The notes: generated from the sequence alone by a model not told the origin. A DNA stretch of 64,000 nt from an uncultured Clostridia bacterium (GCA_964489735.1 CAZBAL010000006.1:11796-75795), one strand, 5' to 3'. Counted from the first letter of the stretch, positions 32,281 to 63,999 are shown. Numbers and translations: made by a program.

Positions 32281-34279
32281 TTACTCAATCCACTTTAAAT
32301 CAACTGTATTATCAAAGCAGTGGAATTTTATATCTGCTATACCTGCTGCATCTTCTATATCAATATCAGGTCCTAATATTTTTTAATACTTCCTGGTATT
32401 CTAACTTCTCCGTTTAAGTTGCACTCTTTAAACGATAATTCACCAATTTTCTTCAACTTGGAACCACCTTCGAATCTAAGCGTATTTAATGGTGTCTTTT
32501 TAAAGGCATAAACAGCAATAGTTTCTACCGATGATGGTATGTTTACTTCTTCCAAGCCACTTTCACCAAATGACAGTGGACCAACAACAATAAGAGAGTT
32601 TGGTAAATCTATTGTCTTGAGAGACTCACAATTAGCAAACGCTCTCTCTTTAATATTTACGACATGATTTGGAATTTCTACTTCCTCAAGTGAAGCACAA
32701 TTACTAAAAGTATAACTTGGTATCACTGTAATAGGACTTAGAATTTTTGCACTGCTTAAGTTTTGACAAGATCTAAAAACTCCATCTTCCATTAGTTCGA
32801 CAGAATTCGGAACCGTTATAGATTTCAATCCAGATCCAAAAAACGCATGCGATTTTATTTCCTTCACCGAATTAGGAATGACAATCTCTGAAAGTGCAGA
32901 GCAAGCCGAAAAAGCAAATCGATCTATCGATGTTACTGAGCTAGGTATCACTACTGTTTTCAATAAAGGGCTTCCAGAAAAAGCATTTTCTCCAATGGAT
33001 GTTACTGAATTTGGAATATTAACTTTCAATAATGACATACATCCTCTAAAACTATGAGGAGCAATTGATTTTAATGAGCCAGGTAGTACGACTTCTGTCA
33101 ACTCAGTAGAACCAAAAGACCATTCCCCGATAGTTTCAGGAGAGTAACTATCAATAAATACAACTTCTTCCAAAGTAGACCCATAAAACCCAGAATTCCC
33201 TATATGACACTCTTGCGGAATGTATACTTTTTTCAAAGTAGTGCTGTTTTTGAAAGCATCTTTGCCCAGTTCTTTTACTCTTATGCCTTCAATATATCTA
33301 GGAAGTGCTAGTGTCGCCATAGAACTGTTAGAAGACTTTATTCTTACACTCATATCGTCTATTTTTTCCCATTCATAATCAGCTACTATTACTTTAACTT
33401 TCTTTTTTGCCCTTTTACCATCTGTAGTTTTGAAAACTACAGTAACTTGGTACTCTCCTTCAACTGTAGAATTAACATAGTCGTCCTCTATGTATATATC
33501 GCTTACAGCATTTCCGTTCTCATCCGTTGCTGTAACACCTTCCAGTATATGACTATTCAGTTTATCTCTACCTGCTGAACCATCTGTTATTTCACTATCA
33601 TTTAGTTGAACTCCATATGCTTCAGGCAAGTTCTTTACATTAACATCTGTCGTTTCATAGGTTCTTTCATTATATGGTATTGTAAGACTGTATAATATTT
33701 TGGCTAGCTCTGCTCTGCTTATATCATTTTCAGACTTGAACACCCTCCAGGGTAACCATTAATAGCTCCCATAGAAACCAGCTTTTCAATTGAGCCTTTC
33801 GCCCAATGGCCTTCTATATCTGTCAATGATGCAGTATTTCCCAAGTCATTATACTTATTTGTATTATCCAGAGCAGCAAATATCAACTTAGATGCCTCTG
33901 CTCTTTTTATATTGTTTCCTGGCTTAAAACTTCCATCAGCATATCCGTCGATTATTCCTGCAGAAGATAGATCCGTAATATATGGTTCACTCCACATTTC
34001 TGAGTTCACATCAGTGTAAGTTTTTACTATTCCCTTCGACTTTATAAGCATGTCAAAATATGCACTGACCATCTTTGCTGCTTCTTCTCTTTTTATCGGA
34101 TTATCTGGTCTAAATGTTTCATCAGGATATCCATTTATTACTTTCTCTTCTACCAGCTTTTCTATAGCTGGCTTAGCCCAGTGCTCTCCTATATCAGTAA
34201 GTGTTACTGCGGATGCAATGCTCGAACTTATTATGACCGTACCCAATGCTAATTATATTATTTTTTTACTCTTTCCCAT
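32281..34279 (-). pseudogene. Surface protein with 3 SLH domains, an Ig-like domain and BspA/TpLRR leucine-rich repeats, disrupted
   Basis: RBS AGGGGAG and ATG at 34279; MGKSKKII*LALGTVII has an in-frame TAA at 34253-34255 inside the signal peptide; 1-bp frameshift at ~33745 in the third SLH (GYPG|VFKSENDISRAE); probable A-run frameshift at ~32378; LRR units of the IPNSVTSIGENAF type. Confidence 0.85.
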
Positions 34280-51733: not shown

Positions 51734-51967
51734 CTATTTTATTACTAATGAAGCAACTATTGCAACTACTATAACTAGTGCACAAGCTATTACTATTTTG
51801 TCTGAGATAGCCTCATAGCTTCTTCCCTGACTTTTACTCCATTCACTATCAGTCATTCCTCCACCAATACTTCCAGAAAGACCGCCTGTTTTATCTTCTT
51901 GCATAAGTACATTTATTATTAAGATTACACTTGCTATAATCACTATTACCATCAAAGCTGTAGACAA
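51734..51967 (-). CDS. secG: Preprotein translocase subunit SecG
   Basis: Two TMs around VLMQEDKTGGLSGSIGGG; eno-secG-rnr neighbourhood. Confidence 0.93.
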   Translation of the reverse strand: MSTALMVIVIIASVILIINVLMQEDKTGGLSGSIGGGMTDSEWSKSQGRSYEAISDKIVIACALVIVVAIVASLVIK

Positions 51968-52005
51968 CTACATCCACCTCCAAATATAAGTATCAAATAT
52001 CATTA

Positions 52006-52034
52006 ATTATATCACATAATGTCATTATGTACAA
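52006..52034 (-). promoter_or_regulatory. Sigma-A promoter for secG, overlapped by a perfect palindrome
   Basis: TTGTAC-17 nt-TATAAT with extended TG; ACATAATG-T-CATTATGT at 52014-52030. Confidence 0.65.
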
Positions 52035-52171
52035 TTATTTCGAGTATTAGAGAAAAAATATTACTGTTTTTTAAAAACATTATTCAGAAAAGAGTTATAA
52101 TATATATATTAGGACGCTTTTTACATAATTCACTCTTTTTTATAATCACATATAAAAAGGAGCTGTTTATT

Positions 52172-54655
52172 ATGAGCACAGAACAAATGGGAATGTTCAC
52201 AGGCAATTACTCATCAAAGGATAAAATCTCTACCATTCATATTGTTTATGAAAACAAAAGAGTCAATATGAGTATAGAGGAAATATTTGATTCTAGAAAA
52301 TACGATATCTTTACTGGTGTAACCTATTCCATTACACCAGAGTTCATGAACAAATACCTATCAAATTTCAACCATAGTCAAATAGTAGTAGGCATATTTG
52401 ATGAAAAAAGTAAATTCGAAGCAAATCAGATGGCAAAAAACATCCAGTCCCAATTTTCAAGAGATATTTCTCTAGAAGCTGTCAATCTTTTTCAGGGGTT
52501 ATCAACAAATATAAAAAACAAGCTAGACAAAAAAATTATGGAGGTTAAAGTTCCTACTTCATATGTAATTCATTCAAAATTCTATTTGATGGAAAATGAT
52601 GATGGAGACAATAGAATAGTAATAGGTTCAGCTAATCTATCTAATCAAGCTTTTAGTGATAAGGTCCCACAATTTGAAAACATCATTATTTTAGACAACA
52701 ATTCTTTGTATGGTCTTTATAAAGACTATTTCAATGATGAAATAAAACCAATACTCAGTGAATACTTCCCTAAAGAACTTCTTAAAATCAATGCTCGAGA
52801 AATAAAGAAAATTACAAAAGAAGAAGAAGTTAATATAGACAAAGTTTTTGCTCTTACAAACGATGATGTTGAAAGAATTAGATCAAAAGCGCCTTTGGAT
52901 ACTATAGATAATTTAAGAGAAAAGGTTGCAATCGGTTTAGTTCCTAAAACTGTTTATAATGAAATGAAAAATATTGATAGTGATAAAGGCAATATTGATA
53001 GTGCGGAAAAAGAAAAAAGTGAGATAAAAAATATTGCTTATGAATTAATAAAAGAATCTATAAATCCTCGTCTAAAGAAACCCAATCTTAAAAAAACTAT
53101 TGATGTACCGAAATTTGTGCGTAGAAAAATTCAAATAATTTCATCCAGTAAGCAAGATGAGAGTCTTGTAAGAAAAGAGTTATACAGTAAATCGGGCGAA
53201 AGAAATCTTGACTCTAATAAAACAGGACTTTTTATCCCAATGAAGTCAGATAAAAACAGTTTGCAGATGTTTGGAGAGATAGCATCTGATGATGAAATTA
53301 AGAAATCTCTAGAAGTTTTAAACCAATTTATGGAAACCTATAGCGACTTCGTTTATAAGTATGAGGATGGTTATGGCCAAAGAATAATGGAGGCTGTAAT
53401 CTACGTTTTTTCTTCTCCATTTATTTATGAATTAAAACAAATGTTAGAGTTGCCCGAAAGCAGACTAGACATACCTCAATTCTTATTTATTGGTGGAACT
53501 GCAGGCTCAGGTAAATCTTCATTGCTAAAAGTCCTCACAAAGATGGTCGGCGTTGATGATAAACCGTACTGGAGATTCGATTCTCTTTACGAAGGCCATA
53601 ATGATAAATCAAACAAAGTCAATATCTTGAGGAATTGGATGACAGAAGAAAATGTAAATCCAATAATGGTAGATGAAATCAATCCCTGGTTCTTTACAAA
53701 TAATCACTATGGCACCGATTTAATAAAAACAATTGCTAACAATAATGTTAACAATGTCAATGCATTCCCAGTACTAATTGGAACAACTAACTCTGATGGA
53801 TATTCACTGCCTGCAGAAGGAAGAAGGAGAAGTTACTTTCTAAAAATTGATAAAATATTCGATTCTGATCATAAAAAAGATTCTCAAATTGTATATCAGG
53901 ATATCTATAATAAAATTGATAATAAGTTGTTTTTAGATTTTGTGTATAGAATGTCTAAAAGAATAGAAAACAAGGATATATATAACTGGAATCATTTTTC
54001 AGAATCTTGTGGTCTAATAGATTTTTTATACCAATCTAGGGAAATATTTAAAGAATACTACAAAGAATCAAATATACCTTTACCAAGGTATTTCCCAATG
54101 GATAGGTATAGTGATGACAGTGAAAGTGCTCAAGAAAAGTGGAGAAAGCTATATAAAAGTTCATCAAAAATACACTTTACATTTGACGAAAATTCTTATC
54201 ATCTGTTCTTTAAACTTTCAACAATAGATGAAAATTCGTTTCAGATATATGGTGGTAAAAAATTGTCGCAAATATATGCAGATTCTATACCACAGAAAAT
54301 ATTAATAGGTTCATCCCAAGGAGTTACAGATATTGAGCTTGATACAGACAAATTTTTCGAATGGATAGGAGAAAGCAACCCCTACAAGGATTATTACAAA
54401 AAGAAACTCCTAGATACTTACTTAGAAGATAAATCTAAAATCGAGGAAAGTAAAGCAGAAATAATAATAGATCTTGAGAAATTAACCGATGATGAATCCT
54501 TAAGAAAAAGAATTTATGAAGCTATTCCTTCAAGTGTTATTAATGAAACGGATGAGCAAACTGTACATTTAAATAAAGTCGAATTCTGTAAATGGCAGAA
54601 CATTCCTTACAAAAACTCACTCTTTAATAGAGTATTTGGAAATTCTAAAAAGTAA
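52172..54655 (+). CDS. PLD-family (single HKD) nuclease fused to an AAA+ ATPase, 827 aa; candidate stand-alone defence/restriction protein
   Basis: AAGGAG RBS before ATG 52172; HSKFYLME...IGSANLS (aa 134 onward); Walker A GGTAGSGKS (aa 441); Walker B IMVDEIN (aa ~501); sensor GTTN (aa 537); RRR arginine-finger region (aa 551). Confidence 0.8.
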   Translation: MSTEQMGMFTGNYSSKDKISTIHIVYENKRVNMSIEEIFDSRKYDIFTGVTYSITPEFMNKYLSNFNHSQIVVGIFDEKSKFEANQMAKNIQSQFSRDISLEAVNLFQGLSTNIKNKLDKKIMEVKVPTSYVIHSKFYLMENDDGDNRIVIGSANLSNQAFSDKVPQFENIIILDNNSLYGLYKDYFNDEIKPILSEYFPKELLKINAREIKKITKEEEVNIDKVFALTNDDVERIRSKAPLDTIDNLREKVAIGLVPKTVYNEMKNIDSDKGNIDSAEKEKSEIKNIAYELIKESINPRLKKPNLKKTIDVPKFVRRKIQIISSSKQDESLVRKELYSKSGERNLDSNKTGLFIPMKSDKNSLQMFGEIASDDEIKKSLEVLNQFMETYSDFVYKYEDGYGQRIMEAVIYVFSSPFIYELKQMLELPESRLDIPQFLFIGGTAGSGKSSLLKVLTKMVGVDDKPYWRFDSLYEGHNDKSNKVNILRNWMTEENVNPIMVDEINPWFFTNNHYGTDLIKTIANNNVNNVNAFPVLIGTTNSDGYSLPAEGRRRSYFLKIDKIFDSDHKKDSQIVYQDIYNKIDNKLFLDFVYRMSKRIENKDIYNWNHFSESCGLIDFLYQSREIFKEYYKESNIPLPRYFPMDRYSDDSESAQEKWRKLYKSSSKIHFTFDENSYHLFFKLSTIDENSFQIYGGKKLSQIYADSIPQKILIGSSQGVTDIELDTDKFFEWIGESNPYKDYYKKKLLDTYLEDKSKIEESKAEIIIDLEKLTDDESLRKRIYEAIPSSVINETDEQTVHLNKVEFCKWQNIPYKNSLFNRVFGNSKK

Positions 54656-54732
54656 AAGAAAACCATAATATTCAATTTGATTATTTATAACATCTTAAAA
54701 TCTTAGTAAAAATATCAATATTTTAATCAATA

Positions 54733-54790
54733 TTAAAAAACCTCGAAATCCCATAGTGAACTGATTTAGTTCCATACTGGATTCCGAGGT
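54733..54790. terminator. Long imperfect hairpin between the convergent PLD-AAA gene and eno (terminator)
   Basis: AACCTCG-AAATCC...GGATT-CCGAGGTT arms with an inner AACT/AGTT pair; T6 on the minus strand and T-rich on the plus strand. Confidence 0.7.
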
Positions 54791-54831
54791 TCTTTCTATC
54801 TCAACAATCGTTCTCTAAAATTACTGAGTAA

Positions 54832-56190
<1,359 letters not shown>

Positions 56191-61107: not shown

Positions 61108-63999
61108 CTATTTTGCAACAACTCTATACAATATGGTGGAGTCTAAAGCGTTGATAAGTTTATCATTATTTAAATCGTATTTTTTTGTTTCTTCGCTGTA
61201 CTCTGTACCTAGTTTAATAGTTCTTTGCATTACCAGTACATCTTGCATATTTACATTGCCATCTTCATTTAAATCATATTTTGATAGATCTACGTTAGAT
61301 TCAATAACAGTAATTTTTCTTGTTCTTTCAGTTTTATTACCAACAGAATCCTCTGCAATATAAGTTAAAGTATATTCTCCAACCACATCTGTATTTACTG
61401 TACCTTCTACTGTCAGTTTTGGTTCTGGTGCACCTTCATAATCATCAGTAACCATAACACCCTCTAGAGGATTAAATGATGATCCTTTTATAACTTCAAC
61501 AGGGTTGAGGTTATAAATTATAGGTGGCGTGTTATCTAATGGTAAAGAAGTAATTGCTCCATTAACCTTTCTGATCATCTGCTCAACTTCTATATCAGCC
61601 GTATTTGATTGATTAACTAAATCATTGGCTTCATCAAGTATATTTCTACCTTTATCAACATTCTCAGTTTTAGGTAACTTCGGATCTATTAAACGGTTGT
61701 ATAGTTTTTCTATAGATTCAATAAGCATTTGATCTAGTCTTTCTCTTTTAATCTTCTCTTCATCTATATTTTTCTTAGGAATTTCATCAACCTTCTGTCT
61801 GAACTCATTAACTATAGCTCTCATTTCAGTTTTAACTTCAGTAGTATTAGGTTTTTCATTAGTATATATATCAAATTTCTTTAAATATTCATCTATAAGC
61901 AACTCTACTTTTTGTAGGTTTTCATCATCATAAAAATCTTTTATAGGATACTTTTCAATATCTTCTTTACATTGTTGTCTAAAATCTTCTATGCTCATAT
62001 TGTTTATCATAATATTTTCAAAATCAAACACAGGATAATCATTGTTTATATGATAATTATCTTTAACAAAACTAGCCCCTAACTGATCAATGAAATCTTG
62101 TGATTTCATATGAACCATGGATTTAGGCAATACATTTGATAATCCATTCCCTGTTTCAAGGGTATCTTCCAAGTAATATGAGCTCAAATAGGTTTGATCT
62201 TTGTTCGCTATACCTAAATATCCAAAGTTGTCGTTTAGATTGAGACTTTTTCTAAGATTACCAACTGTGTACGTATTCTCTAAAGAGGAGCCCACTCTTT
62301 CCATTCTACCAGCCAGAGTTCCTATTGCACTGATATCTATAAAAGAACCTAATGAAACAACGTCTCCTGTAGAGTAAGCATCTACTATCTTCTTGTCTGA
62401 GAATCCAGCAATACCACCAGTCCAGTAATACCCTACAACTCTACCTCTATTAGCAACTTTTGAGAGGTTACCTCTTGATATTCCTACAACTCCACCGACA
62501 GTAACTTCATCAGCAGCACTAACAAAAGGCCCCTGATATATATTTCCAGTATTTCTTGAACTATCTATGGAACTTCCACTGTCTATACTACCAGCAATTC
62601 CACCAGTGAATCCTTGTTTTGTATCTATATTGCCTATATTTTCTGCATTTGATATTTTTGTGAATTCAGCTTTACCAACTACTCCACCAATAGATGTTTT
62701 TCTGCTGGTTTTAATGCTTACATACGATTTCACATTTGATATATCCGCATAGAGAGTTTTTCCCGCAACTCCTCCTATATCACTACCGCCTTTATCTAAA
62801 TTAATTTCTCCTTCAACTGAAACATTCTTTATTACTGCTGGACTATTCGAAGATCCTTTTACAATTGCAAATAGGCCTGCATGATTTTCTGTTGATTCAT
62901 TAATTACTATATTAGAAATTCTTTTGTTATGTCCATCAAAAGTCCCTTCAAAAGGCTTTAGATTTCCAATTGGAATAAATGGTAAATTTTCTCCTTGGAA
63001 GTTGTTCTTATCATTTCTAAATCTAACATCTGTGATCAGATTTATAGTCTTACCTTTGAAAGTTTCATTCCCATATTTTTCATCATTTAAATTCAAAATT
63101 TTAGATAATCCTGCTAATTCTTGATGATTCTTAATAGTAAACTCTGTTGCATCTGGATTTTCATCATACCATTTAGTATCTGCAAAGTTTAACCATGTTT
63201 GTGTCTGTATATGCTTTTTAATAGAAACTATTACACTATTCTCACCATCTTCAAATTTACTACTTTTCACTTGATAAAATGGTTCGTTTTTTGCATCATA
63301 TTCTTTTTCAGTTCCTGTGAGTTTTTCTTCAAGATATCTAACACTCGCATTACCTGGTGAAATTGTTTTTACCACTTTCAGCTTGTTACCATCATATACT
63401 TTATCACCAGTAAATATTTGTTGATCTTTAACATCTACAAATTCACCGTCTTGTAATGCTCTACCTGTTCTTAGTATGGACAGCGAGTAATCAGAATCTT
63501 TCTCAGGTAATACTATATTATAACCATTAGGTTCTCTTGCAATCATAGATATATTTAAGTTTTTATCCGCTAAAACAAGATTTCCTTCTATCTTCGCTCC
63601 ATTTACTGTAAAGTAGTCAACTTCTAAACTAGGATTTGGTTTTATATCTAATATTACTGCACTACCATAAGCCAATGAACCTGAATTGGTTGATATAATC
63701 TCTGCATTTTCAGGATTCTCAATGGTTACATTTACTTTATTAGTGTCAGAATCGTACTTCAAGACTGGATAGTCATTTGATTTTTGCTTAAAGAAAGCTA
63801 GTTCCCTATTAAGGTTCGTAACCAGTTCTTGAGACTTCATCTGTGCTTCACTATAAGGATAGCAATCAATTATTACACCTGCATCTGAATAATACTGAGA
63901 AACACCTTTTCTGCCTCGGTTATCATCCCTTTCTTCCCAATAGCAGTTTTCCACATATGAAGTGTACTCATTTGTTATCTTTGCTATATCAGCTGCAGC
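61108..63999 (-). CDS. Large secreted/surface protein (5' end outside the window): GLUG-type beta-helix, helical-bundle spacers, Ig-like domain, C-terminal dockerin
   Basis: The frame stays open to the window edge (AAADIAKITNEYTSYVENC...). GLUG-like units IGGVAG/IGGVVG/TGGIAG; Ig-like DNTPPII...GEYTLTYIAEDSVGN; duplicated Ca-binding loops DLNEDGNVNMQD and DLNNDKLINALD (61108-61278). Confidence 0.85.
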   Translation of the reverse strand, partial: AAADIAKITNEYTSYVENCYWEERDDNRGRKGVSQYYSDAGVIIDCYPYSEAQMKSQELVTNLNRELAFFKQKSNDYPVLKYDSDTNKVNVTIENPENAEIISTNSGSLAYGSAVILDIKPNPSLEVDYFTVNGAKIEGNLVLADKNLNISMIAREPNGYNIVLPEKDSDYSLSILRTGRALQDGEFVDVKDQQIFTGDKVYDGNKLKVVKTISPGNASVRYLEEKLTGTEKEYDAKNEPFYQVKSSKFEDGENSVIVSIKKHIQTQTWLNFADTKWYDENPDATEFTIKNHQELAGLSKILNLNDEKYGNETFKGKTINLITDVRFRNDKNNFQGENLPFIPIGNLKPFEGTFDGHNKRISNIVINESTENHAGLFAIVKGSSNSPAVIKNVSVEGEINLDKGGSDIGGVAGKTLYADISNVKSYVSIKTSRKTSIGGVVGKAEFTKISNAENIGNIDTKQGFTGGIAGSIDSGSSIDSSRNTGNIYQGPFVSAADEVTVGGVVGISRGNLSKVANRGRVVGYYWTGGIAGFSDKKIVDAYSTGDVVSLGSFIDISAIGTLAGRMERVGSSLENTYTVGNLRKSLNLNDNFGYLGIANKDQTYLSSYYLEDTLETGNGLSNVLPKSMVHMKSQDFIDQLGASFVKDNYHINNDYPVFDFENIMINNMSIEDFRQQCKEDIEKYPIKDFYDDENLQKVELLIDEYLKKFDIYTNEKPNTTEVKTEMRAIVNEFRQKVDEIPKKNIDEEKIKRERLDQMLIESIEKLYNRLIDPKLPKTENVDKGRNILDEANDLVNQSNTADIEVEQMIRKVNGAITSLPLDNTPPIIYNLNPVEVIKGSSFNPLEGVMVTDDYEGAPEPKLTVEGTVNTDVVGEYTLTYIAEDSVGNKTERTRKITVIESNVDLSKYDLNEDGNVNMQDVLVMQRTIKLGTEYSEETKKYDLNNDKLINALDSTILYRVVAK

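What the first reader, a model, noticed from the sequence alone, without database searches (positions are those of the whole stretch)
52172..54655. Stand-alone PLD-nuclease / AAA+ ATPase fusion inserted antisense into the eno-secG core locus: candidate new single-gene defence system
Seen in sequence: an 827-aa ORF with one HKD-type motif (HSKFYLME...IGSANLS...FEN), a ~250-aa helical linker, then Walker A GGTAGSGKS, Walker B IMVDEIN, sensor LIGTTN and AEGRRRSY, and a ~270-aa unknown C-terminus. It is one of the few + strand genes, splits the normally adjacent eno and secG, and looks more AT-rich than its neighbours in spot counts. Established knowledge: single-HKD PLD domains (Nuc, BfiI/NgoFVII-type, DrmC) are nucleases that must dimerise, and DEIN/GTxN/RRR motifs are those of McrB-like and SF3-like AAA+ ring motors. 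Inference: ring assembly could build composite nuclease sites, giving an NTP-gated nuclease. There is no methyltransferase, McrC or specificity gene nearby, so it is not a classical R-M or McrBC system and would have to sense modified DNA or a phage product. I do not recognise it as a named system.
Basis: partly seen in the sequence, partly recalled or inferred. Interest (0 to 1): 0.8.

Follow-up and report, generated by a model that had tools for sequence, protein, structure and literature searches.

The report
Stand-alone AgaP-like PLD nuclease–ring ATPase gene
This lone accessory gene fuses a restriction-enzyme-type DNA-cutting (PLD) domain to a virus-type ring-helicase ATPase and ends in a probable membrane anchor. 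It is an Argonaute-free bacterial relative of AgaP, a haloarchaeal anti-plasmid and anti-virus nuclease, so it is most likely a one-protein weapon against incoming DNA, though nobody has tested that.

Summary
Window 52172-54655 (+) encodes an intact 827-aa protein with an invariant single HKD/PLD nuclease motif and an AAA+ ATPase whose Walker A, Walker B, sensor-1 and arginine residues are also invariant. By fold the ATPase is SF3-helicase-like (poxvirus D5/E5, Cch, large T antigen) and not McrB-like. The 250-aa C-terminal region has no significant structural relative.

The gene sits alone at a recurrent insertion site between secG and eno. That site is empty in three relatives and holds a P-type ATPase cassette in two congeners.

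The family is small (841 clusters at 50% identity among 1.84 billion proteins), patchy, and has no conserved partner gene. PADLOC-DB v2 has no model for it.

- It is a full-length homologue (hhalign 99.4%, E 5e-21) of Argonaute-adjacent haloarchaeal AgaP-type proteins. AgaP's PLD centre has been shown experimentally to restrict plasmids, but the AgaP paper does not mention its ATPase half. This genome has no Argonaute.
- Family members across phyla end in a basic-aromatic tail resembling the MinD membrane-targeting sequence.

Best reading (confidence 0.55): a stand-alone, ATP-driven, probably membrane-tethered nuclease against foreign DNA. The scan has noted the same kind of fusion before in other genomes.

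The parts
52172..54655 (+). Complete ORF, 827 aa plus stop: PLD nuclease, helical linker, SF3-like ATPase, C-terminal domain, basic amphipathic tail
   Evidence: homologues align from this start; AF2 model mean pLDDT 81.9
52156..52162 (+). Ribosome-binding site AAAGGAG, 9 nt before the ATG at 52172
   Evidence: read directly in the sequence
52019..52171 (+). In-frame upstream extension used by the public 878-aa gene call; probably not translated. It lies in the divergent secG / PLD-gene promoter region
   Evidence: P0002 is 878 aa; homologue N-termini match the 827-aa form
52229..52771 (+). PLD (single-HKD) nuclease domain, residues about 20-200
   Evidence: PLDc_2 E 2.7e-7 and RE_NgoFVII E 3.9e-7, both above cut-off; Foldseek top hits R.NgoAVII 4rct and SauUSI 7clg; NucT by profile
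52571..52636 (+). Catalytic motif H134-S-K136-(x)4-E141 ... G152-S153-A-N155 (HSKFYLMENDDGDNRIVIGSAN)
   Evidence: H134, K136, G152, S153 and N155 invariant in 32 homologues
52772..53161 (+). Long helical linker, residues about 201-330
   Evidence: AF2 secondary structure: helices 201-216, 230-253, 260-295, 312-325
53162..53464 (+). Beta-hairpin plus two-helix pre-ATPase module, residues about 331-431, a possible collar or oligomerisation module; invariant R334, G352, G368, Y401, R404, E407
   Evidence: the function is inferred
53465..53851 (+). SF3-like AAA+ ATPase core, residues about 432-560: Walker A GGTAGSGKS (441-449), Walker B IMVDEI (498-503), sensor-1 GTTN (537-540), R552/R553
   Evidence: invariant residues; Foldseek hits MPXV E5, VACV D5, Cch, SV40/JCV large T antigen, SaPI5 primase-helicase; phage primase-helicases and VapE in BFVD
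53852..54613 (+). Conserved C-terminal region, residues 561-814: helical lid plus small alpha/beta modules. The 'IELDxxxFFxWIxxxNPY' unit is repeated once more in the long subfamily, which includes this protein
   Evidence: AF2 pLDDT 87.8; no significant PDB fold match, best E 0.07, with weak winged-helix-type hits; alignment
54614..54652 (+). C-terminal basic amphipathic tail NSLFNRVFGNSKK, residues 815-827: candidate MinD-type membrane-targeting helix
   Evidence: tail motif in 47% of family members versus 3.5% of interior windows and 7.1% of this genome's C-termini; conserved in Firmicutes, Fusobacteriota, Campylobacterota, Acidobacteria and haloarchaea; E. coli MinD MTS is KGFLKRLFGG (PMC5471200)
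54739..54791 (.). Strong hairpin between the gene's stop and the eno stop. It acts as the eno terminator (U6 tail on the - strand) and as a weaker terminator for the PLD gene
   Evidence: RNA fold -30.9 kcal/mol, z -6.2 on the - strand; -20.8 kcal/mol, z -4.5 on the + strand
51734..51967 (-). secG, left flank of the insertion site
54832..56136 (-). eno, right flank of the insertion site

Best explanation
The gene encodes a stand-alone, Argonaute-independent member of the AgaP-like PLD-nuclease / SF3-like-ATPase family (Pfam PLDc_2 plus PF27394 'Aq_aa27'). It most likely acts as an ATP-driven nuclease against incoming foreign DNA such as phage, plasmid or transforming DNA.

**Proposed mechanism (shown and inferred steps marked)**
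1. The N-terminal single-HKD PLD domain is the nuclease. The motif is shown to be intact and invariant. Activity is inferred from Nuc, BfiI, NgoAVII, SauUSI and AgaP.
2. A single HKD must pair with a second copy to form an active site (established for this superfamily). Cleavage therefore requires oligomerisation.
3. The SF3-like AAA+ domain assembles into a ring and uses ATP to load on or translocate along DNA. The fold and invariant catalytic residues are shown. Ring formation and translocation are inferred. Assembly would bring PLD domains together and so gate cleavage.
4. The C-terminal basic amphipathic tail tethers the enzyme to the inner face of the membrane. The pattern and its conservation are shown. 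Membrane binding is inferred from its likeness to the MinD membrane-targeting sequence.
5. Tethering would bias the enzyme towards DNA that enters through the envelope. This would give spatial self/non-self discrimination and would explain why no methyltransferase or Argonaute guide is needed.

In the haloarchaeal branch, and possibly some bacterial branches, the same enzyme is instead coupled to a pAgo.
For: - Catalytic residues of both enzymatic halves are invariant across homologues sharing 29-67% identity with the window protein.
- The PLD domain matches restriction-enzyme PLD domains by Pfam and by fold: R.NgoAVII and SauUSI.
- The ATPase fold matches SF3 ring helicases best.
- Full-length homology to an Ago-adjacent AgaP-type protein: hhalign 99.35%, E 5.4e-21, 580 columns. 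Piwi adjacency was confirmed in Natrinema and Haloferax.
- AgaP's PLD catalytic residues are required for its toxicity and for plasmid restriction (PMC11442185).
- The distribution is accessory and patchy: 0/3 congeners, 0/2 same-family genomes, and 249 of 185,579 GTDB species.
- The insertion site is variable: empty in three relatives and holding different cargo in two.
- The gene occurs on megaplasmids.
- There is no conserved partner gene across more than 20 independent contexts.
- Defence neighbours include one Cas9 and one type III R-M in the close subfamily, and type I R-M, pAgo-type and MADS in distant members.
- The membrane-tail motif is conserved across phyla.
- There is a precedent for a membrane-bound nuclease cutting phage DNA during injection: SNIPE (bioRxiv 10.1101/2025.11.03.685801).
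Against: - No experiment exists on this protein or on any stand-alone member.
- Most neighbourhoods of the close subfamily are housekeeping.
- The gene is vertically stable within some clades, such as five Limosilactobacillus species and the Anaerococcus group.
- PADLOC-DB v2 has no matching model.
- Identity to AgaP-type proteins is only about 23%, and AgaP works with an Argonaute that this genome lacks.
- AgaP alone was toxic, so a stand-alone form needs a restraint that has not been identified.
- No SF3 Pfam family reaches its threshold (VapE-like 16.9 bits against a cut-off of 25; 2 of 32 members), so the SF3 label rests on fold and motif order.
- The hydrophobic moment of the tail is not clearly higher than that of interior segments (0.52 against 0.48). 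Membrane binding is unproven.
Confidence: 0.55

Rival explanations
1. It is a DNA-processing protein that serves mobile elements. The PLD nickase/nuclease plus SF3 helicase would be used by large plasmids or phages for replication initiation, DNA transfer, degradation of host or competitor DNA, or exclusion. The chromosomal copies would be remnants or domesticated cargo.
For: - SF3 helicases are almost exclusively replication proteins of viruses, plasmids and islands; the fold hits are D5/E5, Cch, SaPI Rep and PriRep1.
- Family members sit on megaplasmids, in Arcobacter directly beside parA/parB/rep.
- Members also sit on 100-380 kb AT-rich, ORFan-rich contigs carrying ThyA, DHFR, RNR, TnpB and tail/lysin-like genes, in one case next to a TraG/VirD4-like gene.
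- Gemella and Leptotrichia chromosomal copies pair with those contigs in the tree.
Against: - In the window and in more than 20 chromosomal contexts the gene is alone. There is no integrase, rep gene, relaxase, terminal repeat or target duplication, and the genome holds a single copy.
- The plasmids that carry it have their own replication genes.
- No relatives were found in GenBank phages or IMG/VR.
- The characterised relative AgaP acts in immunity.
Confidence: 0.2
2. It is a selfish toxic or addiction-type nuclease gene. It would persist because losing or deregulating it harms the cell, and it would offer no real benefit against invaders.
For: - AgaP expressed without its Argonaute is toxic, and the toxicity depends on the PLD catalytic residues (PMC11442185).
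- The gene is a lone, horizontally moving unit at variable sites.
Against: - No antitoxin-like small neighbour is conserved.
- The ATPase, the C-terminal domain and the tail are all strongly conserved, which a simple toxin would not need.
- The gene is stably inherited within several genera.
Confidence: 0.1
3. It is an accessory DNA-repair or DNA-uptake enzyme. One option is a Tdp1-like phosphodiesterase coupled to a motor that clears protein-DNA adducts or blocked ends. Another is a membrane-proximal nuclease that processes transforming DNA.
For: - There are weak Tyr-DNA_phospho (Tdp1) Pfam hits: E 9e-4 for the window protein, matched in 10 of 32 members with a best E of 2e-6.
- The only PDB sequence-profile hit is NucT.
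- The putative membrane tail would place the enzyme at the envelope.
Against: - Only about 0.1% of species carry it and it is missing from congeners, which is unlike a repair or competence function.
- The PLD domain scores better against restriction-enzyme PLD families than against Tdp1.
- Tdp1 has two HKN motifs in one chain; this protein has one HKD.
Confidence: 0.1

Closest known systems
AgaP, the PLD partner of long-A pAgo in the haloarchaeal APAP system (Cheng et al., mLife 2024, PMC11442185)
   Same: - Ago-adjacent haloarchaeal PLD proteins are homologous over nearly the full length, covering PLD, linker, P-loop ATPase and C-terminal region: hhalign 99.35%, E 5.4e-21, query residues 46-735.
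- They share the N-terminal HKD nuclease.
- The Natrinema zhouii protein also has Walker A/B and sensor motifs and a similar tail, RGFLQRLGFR.
   Different: - Identity is only about 23%.
- The window gene is stand-alone, and the 99.3%-complete genome has no Piwi/pAgo.
- HxK and GSxN are 18 residues apart here, not the roughly 50-residue split described for N. pellirubrum AgaP.
- The paper does not mention an ATPase (0 occurrences of ATPase, Walker or P-loop).
- I compared against an Ago-adjacent Natrinema zhouii protein, not the N. pellirubrum AgaP sequence itself.
SauUSI (type IV ATP-dependent restriction enzyme of Staphylococcus aureus, PDB 7clg)
   Same: - It is a single polypeptide with an N-terminal PLD nuclease, then an NTP-driven DNA motor, then a C-terminal domain.
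- No methyltransferase is needed.
- Its PLD domain is among the top fold hits.
   Different: - The SauUSI motor is an SF2 helicase; here it is an SF3-like AAA+ ring ATPase.
- No modification-reader fold was detected in the C-terminal region.
- There is no sequence-level similarity outside the PLD motif.
R.NgoAVII / CglI and NgoFVII-type PLD restriction endonucleases
   Same: - The best Pfam and fold matches of the nuclease domain are RE_NgoFVII (28/32 members) and 4rct (top Foldseek hit).
- From my own knowledge, NgoAVII/CglI also need an ATPase for cleavage.
   Different: - From my own knowledge, those are multi-gene R-M systems with a methyltransferase, a separate N-protein ATPase and a B3-like DNA-binding domain.
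- None of these is present here.
SF3 replicative helicases (poxvirus D5/E5, SV40/JCV large T antigen, SaPI/PICI primase-helicases, SCCmec Cch)
   Same: - The ATPase fold matches.
- The motif order matches: Walker A, Walker B, sensor-1 T-T-N, then an arginine pair.
   Different: - There is no primase or origin-binding domain; a PLD nuclease sits at the N-terminus instead.
- No SF3 Pfam family reaches its threshold.
- A canonical B' beta-hairpin is not evident in the model.
[quoted passage not shown]
   Same: - The link is conceptual only: a nuclease held at the membrane, with self/non-self discrimination by location.
   Different: - It is an unrelated protein.
- Membrane association of the window protein is only inferred from its tail.

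Membership tests
PLD superfamily single-HKD nucleases (Nuc/BfiI/NgoFVII type) | HxK(x)4D/E ... GSxN catalytic motif | tested here: met
   The motif reads H134-S-K136-FYLM-E141 ... G152-S153-A-N155. H, K, G, S and N are invariant in 32 homologues.
PLD superfamily single-HKD nucleases (Nuc/BfiI/NgoFVII type) | Score above curated family thresholds | tested here: met
   PLDc_2 scores 30.9 bits against a cut-off of 27, and RE_NgoFVII scores 30.0 against 23.8. They hit 32/32 and 28/32 members.
PLD superfamily single-HKD nucleases (Nuc/BfiI/NgoFVII type) | PLD fold | tested here: met
   Foldseek hits R.NgoAVII 4rct (E 1.5e-4, prob 1.00) and SauUSI 7clg (E 5.1e-4, prob 1.00).
PLD superfamily single-HKD nucleases (Nuc/BfiI/NgoFVII type) | Dimerisation to form one active site; nuclease activity | not testable with these tools
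   Only monomer prediction was available, and no biochemistry can be done here.
SF3 helicases | Walker A, Walker B, motif C (sensor-1 Asn after S/T) and a downstream arginine finger, in this order | tested here: met
   The residues are GGTAGSGKS 441-449, D501/E502, T539/N540 and R552/R553, all invariant.
SF3 helicases | Fold closest to SF3 ATPase domains | tested here: met
   MPXV E5, VACV D5, Cch and SV40/JCV large T antigen are the top ATPase hits (prob 0.95-1.00). BFVD hits are dominated by primase/SF3 helicases and VapE, with E down to 1.5e-6. Other AAA+ proteins (RFC, ORC, proteasome) follow at only slightly weaker E-values.
SF3 helicases | Match to an SF3 sequence family (VapE-like, D5, etc.) above threshold | tested here: not met
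   VapE-like_dom scores 16.9 bits against a cut-off of 25 and matches only 2 of 32 members. The remaining hits are generic P-loop or AAA families.
SF3 helicases | B' DNA-binding beta-hairpin; hexamer; helicase activity | tested here: inconclusive
   The model shows helices, not a hairpin, between Walker B and sensor-1. Oligomer state and activity are not testable here.
McrB-type AAA+ (McrBC) | McrB/AAA_5-type GTPase domain with a McrC partner | tested here: not met
   There is no AAA_5 or McrB family hit, no McrB among the fold hits, no McrC-like neighbour and no conserved partner.
AgaP / APAP (pAgo-associated PLD proteins) | Homology to Ago-adjacent PLD proteins | tested here: met
   hhalign of the family profile against the Natrinema zhouii Piwi-adjacent protein gives prob 99.35%, E 5.4e-21 and 580 columns. 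A second Piwi-adjacent homologue is in Haloferax.
AgaP / APAP (pAgo-associated PLD proteins) | Operon with a long-A pAgo | tested here: not met
   The neighbours are secG and eno. There is no Piwi or pAgo anywhere in the 99.3%-complete genome, and the positive controls worked.
AgaP / APAP (pAgo-associated PLD proteins) | Split catalytic motif, HxK and GSxN about 50 residues apart (as described for N. pellirubrum AgaP) | tested here: not met
   The spacing here is 18 residues (H134 to G152). The Ago-adjacent N. zhouii and Haloferax proteins also show the canonical short spacing.
Pfam PF27394 (Aq_aa27) | Hit to the family model | tested here: met
   The precomputed annotation lists PF27394 for the window's own protein (P0002) and for nearly all homologues. 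The model is absent from the local Pfam copy, so I could not re-score it.
SauUSI-type type IV restriction enzymes | PLD plus SF2 helicase plus modification-reading target-recognition domain | tested here: not met
   The PLD is shared, but the motor is SF3-like, not SF2. The C-terminal region has no significant fold match.
MinD-type C-terminal membrane-targeting sequence | Short terminal basic amphipathic helix with the pattern hydrophobic-hydrophobic-x-x-hydrophobic-hydrophobic-G, as in KGFLKRLFGG | tested here: met
   The window tail is SLFNRVFGNSKK. Homologue tails include KKGFWARLFG, GFFGRLFGK, GGFLSRLFGD and RGFLQRLGFR. The motif occurs in 47% of members, against 3.5% of interior windows and 7.1% of the genome's C-termini. 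The MinD sequence is from PMC5471200.
MinD-type C-terminal membrane-targeting sequence | Actual membrane binding | not testable with these tools
   This needs localisation or liposome-binding experiments.

The most novel reading that the evidence does not exclude
The whole AgaP-like family, including the published AgaP whose ATPase half and tail its authors do not mention, would be a new class of membrane-tethered, ATP-driven ring nucleases. A hexameric SF3-type motor anchored by a MinD-like amphipathic helix would capture DNA as it crosses the membrane and activate paired PLD sites to destroy it. Self would be told from non-self by location, not by modification or guide. Argonaute coupling in some lineages would be a secondary add-on.
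Probability: 0.2. Interest if true: 0.8.

Novelty: new variant of a known kind. Interest (0 to 1): 0.6.

Why it matters
**If the reading holds**
- This would be a compact one-gene immune enzyme that combines three parts not previously described together: a metal-independent PLD nuclease, a virus-type SF3 ring motor, and a membrane anchor.
- It would add a second example, after SNIPE, of defence by spatial discrimination of incoming DNA.

**What it would do for AgaP**
- It would reinterpret AgaP, the only studied relative, as an ATPase-nuclease and not a plain PLD protein.
- That makes AgaP's unexplained toxicity and its coupling to Argonaute directly testable with Walker-motif and tail mutants.

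**Practical relevance**
- The close subfamily lives in host-associated Firmicutes and Fusobacteriota: Peptoniphilus, Anaerococcus, Gemella, Limosilactobacillus, Sneathia and Leptotrichia.
- It may be one of the barriers to DNA uptake or phage infection in such bacteria.

**If the reading is wrong**
- The protein is still an uncharacterised, well-conserved family with a clear set of testable residues.

Tried and rejected
- **McrB-like ATPase.** Rejected. There is no AAA_5/McrB family or fold hit and no McrC.
- **Known defence system.** PADLOC-DB v2 gives only a ZacB hit over the PLD motif, in all 32 members. No PDB relative is found by sequence, and only NucT is found weakly by profile.
- **Phage origin.** No hit in 50,697 GenBank phage records or in IMG/VR.
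- **Transposon or integrative element.** There are no terminal inverted or direct repeats beyond chance-level AT-rich matches. There is no integrase or tRNA. The genome holds a single copy.
- **Foreign codon usage.** Rejected. GC3 and synonymous codon usage are ordinary.
- **Conserved partner gene.** None was found across more than 20 independent contexts.
- **C-terminal domain identity.** A separate AF2 model (pLDDT 87.8) found no significant PDB fold (best E 0.07).
- **PF27394.** It could not be scored locally because it is absent from the held Pfam copy. A literature search for 'aq_aa27' returned only noise.
- **Literature.** Searches for PLD plus SF3 helicase fusions found nothing relevant. 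No follow-up on AgaP's ATPase was found.
- **Within-genome MinD control for the tail.** The genome has no MinD above cut-off. The one protein with a very similar tail (RKKSFLKRFFK) is a YwqE/CpsB-type tyrosine phosphatase, not MinD.
- **Hydrophobic-moment test of the tail.** Not discriminating: 0.52 against 0.48.
- **Which distant bacterial loci carry the pAgo-type neighbours.** Not resolved. tblastn with haloarchaeal Piwi proteins found nothing, and a genome search was ambiguous.


Full report
**1. Observation**

Window 52172-54655 (+) holds an intact 827-aa ORF. A good ribosome-binding site (AAAGGAG, 52156-52162) precedes it. A strong hairpin at 54739-54791 follows it and also serves as the eno terminator. 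The public gene call of 878 aa from 52019 (P0002) is probably over-extended, because all homologues align from the 52172 start.

In an alignment of 32 homologues sharing 29-67% identity with the window protein, these residues are invariant:
- PLD residues H134, K136, G152, S153, N155 and E169
- Walker A G441, G442, S446, G447, K448
- Walker B D501/E502
- sensor-1 T539/N540
- R552/R553

Both enzymatic halves are therefore under strong constraint.

**2. Domain identity**

*Nuclease.* PLDc_2 and RE_NgoFVII score above Pfam's curated thresholds and hit 32/32 and 28/32 family members. An AlphaFold2 model built on the alignment has mean pLDDT 81.9. Foldseek against the PDB puts the PLD domains of R.NgoAVII (4rct) and SauUSI (7clg) at the top.

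*ATPase.* The best ATPase matches are monkeypox E5 and vaccinia D5, SCCmec Cch, SV40/JCV large T antigen, PriRep1 and the SaPI5 primase-helicase. The viral structure library returns phage primase-helicases, VapE and 'superfamily III helicase' proteins, with E down to 1.5e-6. With the motif order Walker A, Walker B, T-T-N, R-R, the ATPase is SF3-like and not McrB-like.

At the sequence level no SF3 family reaches its threshold (VapE-like 16.9 bits against a cut-off of 25; 2 of 32 members). The label therefore rests on fold and motifs.

*Linker and C-terminal region.* Residues 201-330 are long helices. Residues 331-431 form a beta-hairpin plus a helical module with its own invariant residues. 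The C-terminal region (561-814) folds confidently on its own (pLDDT 87.8). It has no significant structural relative: the best Foldseek E is 0.07, and only weak winged-helix-type hits appear.

**3. Genomic setting**

The gene is one of two real + strand genes among about 44 large ORFs in the window. The other is RqcH.

It sits between secG and eno. These two genes are directly adjacent in G002, G004 and G005. In congeners G001 and G003 the same junction holds a different + strand cargo, a DUF6110 protein plus a P-type ATPase. The junction is therefore a recurrent insertion site.

No repeats, integrase or tRNA mark an element.

GC is 0.297, about the 1st percentile of long ORFs. GC3 and synonymous codon usage are ordinary, so the AT-richness is driven by amino-acid composition.

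**4. Family and distribution**

| Measure | Result |
|---|---|
| Hits in the word-indexed search | 153 |
| Clusters at 50% identity among 1.84 billion proteins, E up to 1e-3 | 841 |
| Of those, at E up to 1e-30 | 177 |
| GTDB species representatives carrying a relative | 249 of 185,579 |
| Congeners with a match | 0 of 3 |
| Other same-family genomes with a match | 0 of 2 |

Most members are 660-850 aa and match over the full length.

The close subfamily is in Peptoniphilaceae, Lactobacillaceae, Carnobacteriaceae, Enterococcus, Gemella and Macrococcus. It also occurs in the Fusobacteriota genera Leptotrichia and Sneathia. The nearest relative is in Peptoniphilus olsenii, at 67-69% identity.

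A maximum-likelihood tree broadly follows families but mixes genera within Peptoniphilaceae. It pairs the Gemella and Leptotrichia copies with copies on 197-297 kb AT-rich contigs.

The family also occurs on megaplasmids of Limosilactobacillus, Ligilactobacillus, Arcobacter, Athalassotoga and several haloarchaea. It was not found in GenBank phages or IMG/VR.

**5. Neighbourhoods**

Across 35 loci there is no conserved neighbour outside close relatives. That gives more than 20 independent contexts, so the gene is truly stand-alone.

*Close subfamily.* I scanned 130 neighbours (±3 genes) from 22 contexts. The clear defence genes among them were one Cas9, one type III R-M enzyme/methylase and one RmrA. 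A few MADS, HEC-05 and ParE matches were weaker or generic. The aggregated output does not say which contexts these lie in. Most neighbours were metabolic or housekeeping.

*Distant homologues.* An independent sample of 21 distant chromosomal homologues (Dehalococcoidia, Acidobacteria, the L. reuteri group) gave many more defence hits. These included type I R-M subunits, two pAgo-type proteins, MADS components and PD-T4-6.

Defence association is therefore weak for the window's own subfamily and clearer for the wider family.

**6. Link to AgaP**

Earlier notes of this scan reported similar PLD-SF3 fusions in other genomes, and two of them pointed to AgaP. I tested this lead.

- The plasmid homologue in Natrinema zhouii (701 aa) lies 15 nt downstream of a Piwi-domain protein.
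- A Haloferax alexandrinus homologue is also Piwi-adjacent.
- hhalign of my family profile against the Natrinema protein gives 99.35% probability and E 5.4e-21. The alignment covers 580 columns, spanning PLD, linker, ATPase and C-terminal region.
- The Natrinema protein has Walker A (GGNDSGKG), Walker B (VVDDVD) and sensor-1 (FTSN) motifs.

Cheng et al. (PMC11442185) showed three things about N. pellirubrum AgaP:
- It is toxic when expressed alone, and the toxicity depends on its PLD catalytic residues.
- Together with pAgo it restricts plasmid DNA through the AgaP catalytic centre.
- It enhances immunity to a single-stranded DNA virus.

The paper contains no mention of an ATPase, Walker motif or P-loop. 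I found no later paper on this.

The window's genome is 99.3% complete and has no Piwi/pAgo, with positive controls working. Here the enzyme must work without Argonaute. Stand-alone members also exist in Halapricum and Arcobacter.

**7. A conserved C-terminal tail**

Nearly all members end in a short basic-aromatic motif, often after a variable low-complexity linker:

| Source | Tail |
|---|---|
| Window protein | NSLFNRVFGNSKK |
| Limosilactobacillus (chromosome and plasmid) | KKGFWARLFG |
| 297-kb contig | GFFGRLFGK |
| Gemella | GFFQRLFGKNK |
| Halapricum | GGFLSRLFGD |
| Natrinema | RGFLQRLGFR |
| Arcobacter | LGFFKKIFY |
| Acidobacteria | KSFWARLLGR |
| Dehalococcoidia | RRWWKPW |

A strict form of the motif occurs in 47% of 212 members. 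It occurs in 3.5% of interior windows and in 7.1% of all C-termini in this genome.

The E. coli MinD membrane-targeting sequence is KGFLKRLFGG (PMC5471200). I therefore propose that the tail is a membrane-targeting amphipathic helix. This is inference. A simple hydrophobic-moment score did not separate the tails from interior segments, and a partner-binding peptide remains possible.

**8. Mechanism proposed**

*Shown:*
- an intact, conserved single-HKD nuclease
- an intact, conserved SF3-like ATPase
- a conserved C-terminal domain and tail
- stand-alone, accessory status
- homology to an experimentally validated immune nuclease

*Inferred:*
- The ATPase forms a ring on DNA.
- Oligomerisation pairs the single-HKD domains into active sites, as all single-HKD nucleases require.
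- ATP binding or hydrolysis gates or drives cleavage.
- The tail holds the enzyme at the membrane, so that DNA entering the cell is the preferred substrate.

The last point would explain the absence of a methyltransferase or guide. It has a precedent in SNIPE. I put the defence reading at 0.55 and the membrane-tether sub-claim at about even odds.

*Rivals:*
- a mobile-element replication, transfer or competition protein (0.2)
- a selfish toxic nuclease (0.1)
- an accessory repair or DNA-uptake enzyme (0.1)

**9. Novelty and score**

The family already exists as a Pfam entry of unknown function, and it has one studied distant member, AgaP. The scan has flagged the same kind of fusion in other genomes.

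Not described in anything I could search:
- the SF3-like motor as a family-wide feature, including in AgaP-type proteins
- the Argonaute-free stand-alone form in Firmicutes
- the conserved MinD-like tail

I rate it a new variant of a known kind, with interest 0.6.

**10. Limits**
- No oligomer modelling was possible.
- The PF27394 model was not held locally.
- Neighbourhood scans were aggregated, so defence genes could not be assigned to individual contexts.
- AgaP homology was tested on an Ago-adjacent N. zhouii protein, not on the published N. pellirubrum sequence.

Noticed in passing
window 51968-54831; L010:6635-9052; L005:1-1049: The secG-eno intergenic junction is a recurrent cargo site in this genus. 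It holds the PLD-ATPase gene here and a DUF6110 protein plus a 707-aa P-type ATPase in two congeners. It is empty in one congener and in two other genera of the family. No recombinase or repeats explain how the cargo gets in.
   Followed up: partly
L018 (297-kb contig) and L019 (197-kb contig); about 50 related 773-808-aa homologues on contigs of up to 381 kb: These are very AT-rich (about 24% GC), ORFan-rich large contigs. They carry ThyA, DHFR, RNR, TnpB, an NlpC/P60 tail-lysin-like gene and a TraG/VirD4-like gene next to the PLD-ATPase homologue. They are probably huge phages or phage-plasmids. Their copies pair with the Gemella and Leptotrichia chromosomal copies in the tree. They are absent from IMG/VR and GenBank phages.
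   Followed up: partly
window 52019-52171: The public protein record for this gene (878 aa) starts 51 codons upstream of the start supported by the ribosome-binding site and by homologues. The extra hydrophobic N-terminus is probably an annotation artefact.
   Followed up: yes
L079, L080, L091, L094, L098 (Dehalococcoidia/Chloroflexota loci), gene just downstream of the homologue: The distant Dehalococcoidia homologues (about 671-677 aa) are each followed on the same strand by an ORF of about 410-414 aa. This could be a lineage-specific partner gene. Its identity was not examined.
   Followed up: no
L071:5891-9013 and L075:5889-9011: In the Limosilactobacillus reuteri / Companilactobacillus group, the 755-aa homologue lies directly downstream of a 1041-aa ORF. 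The neighbour scan of this set returned type I R-M HsdR/HsdM/HsdS hits, which suggests a defence-island setting.
   Followed up: partly
L103:7818-9923 and L105:5872-7989: The Ago-adjacent PLD proteins of Natrinema zhouii and Haloferax alexandrinus have the canonical short HxK-to-GSxN spacing (HSKLYLIENRDGTHTLILGSPN; HTKLYIVENQDGSRTLICGSAN). They do not show the roughly 50-residue split motif reported for N. pellirubrum AgaP. Either AgaP-type proteins differ in this respect or that alignment deserves a second look.
   Followed up: partly
G000 contig C10:44793-45563 (L101:521-1291, - strand): A 257-aa YwqE/CpsB-type tyrosine phosphatase in the same genome ends in RKKSFLKRFFK. This tail is very like the MinD membrane-targeting sequence and the tails of the PLD-ATPase family.
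   Followed up: partly
window 32373-33743 and 61108-63954: These are a BspA-type leucine-rich-repeat protein (455 aa) and a 947-aa surface protein with an Ig-like domain and a dockerin type I domain. Both are cell-surface proteins unrelated to the finding.
   Followed up: no
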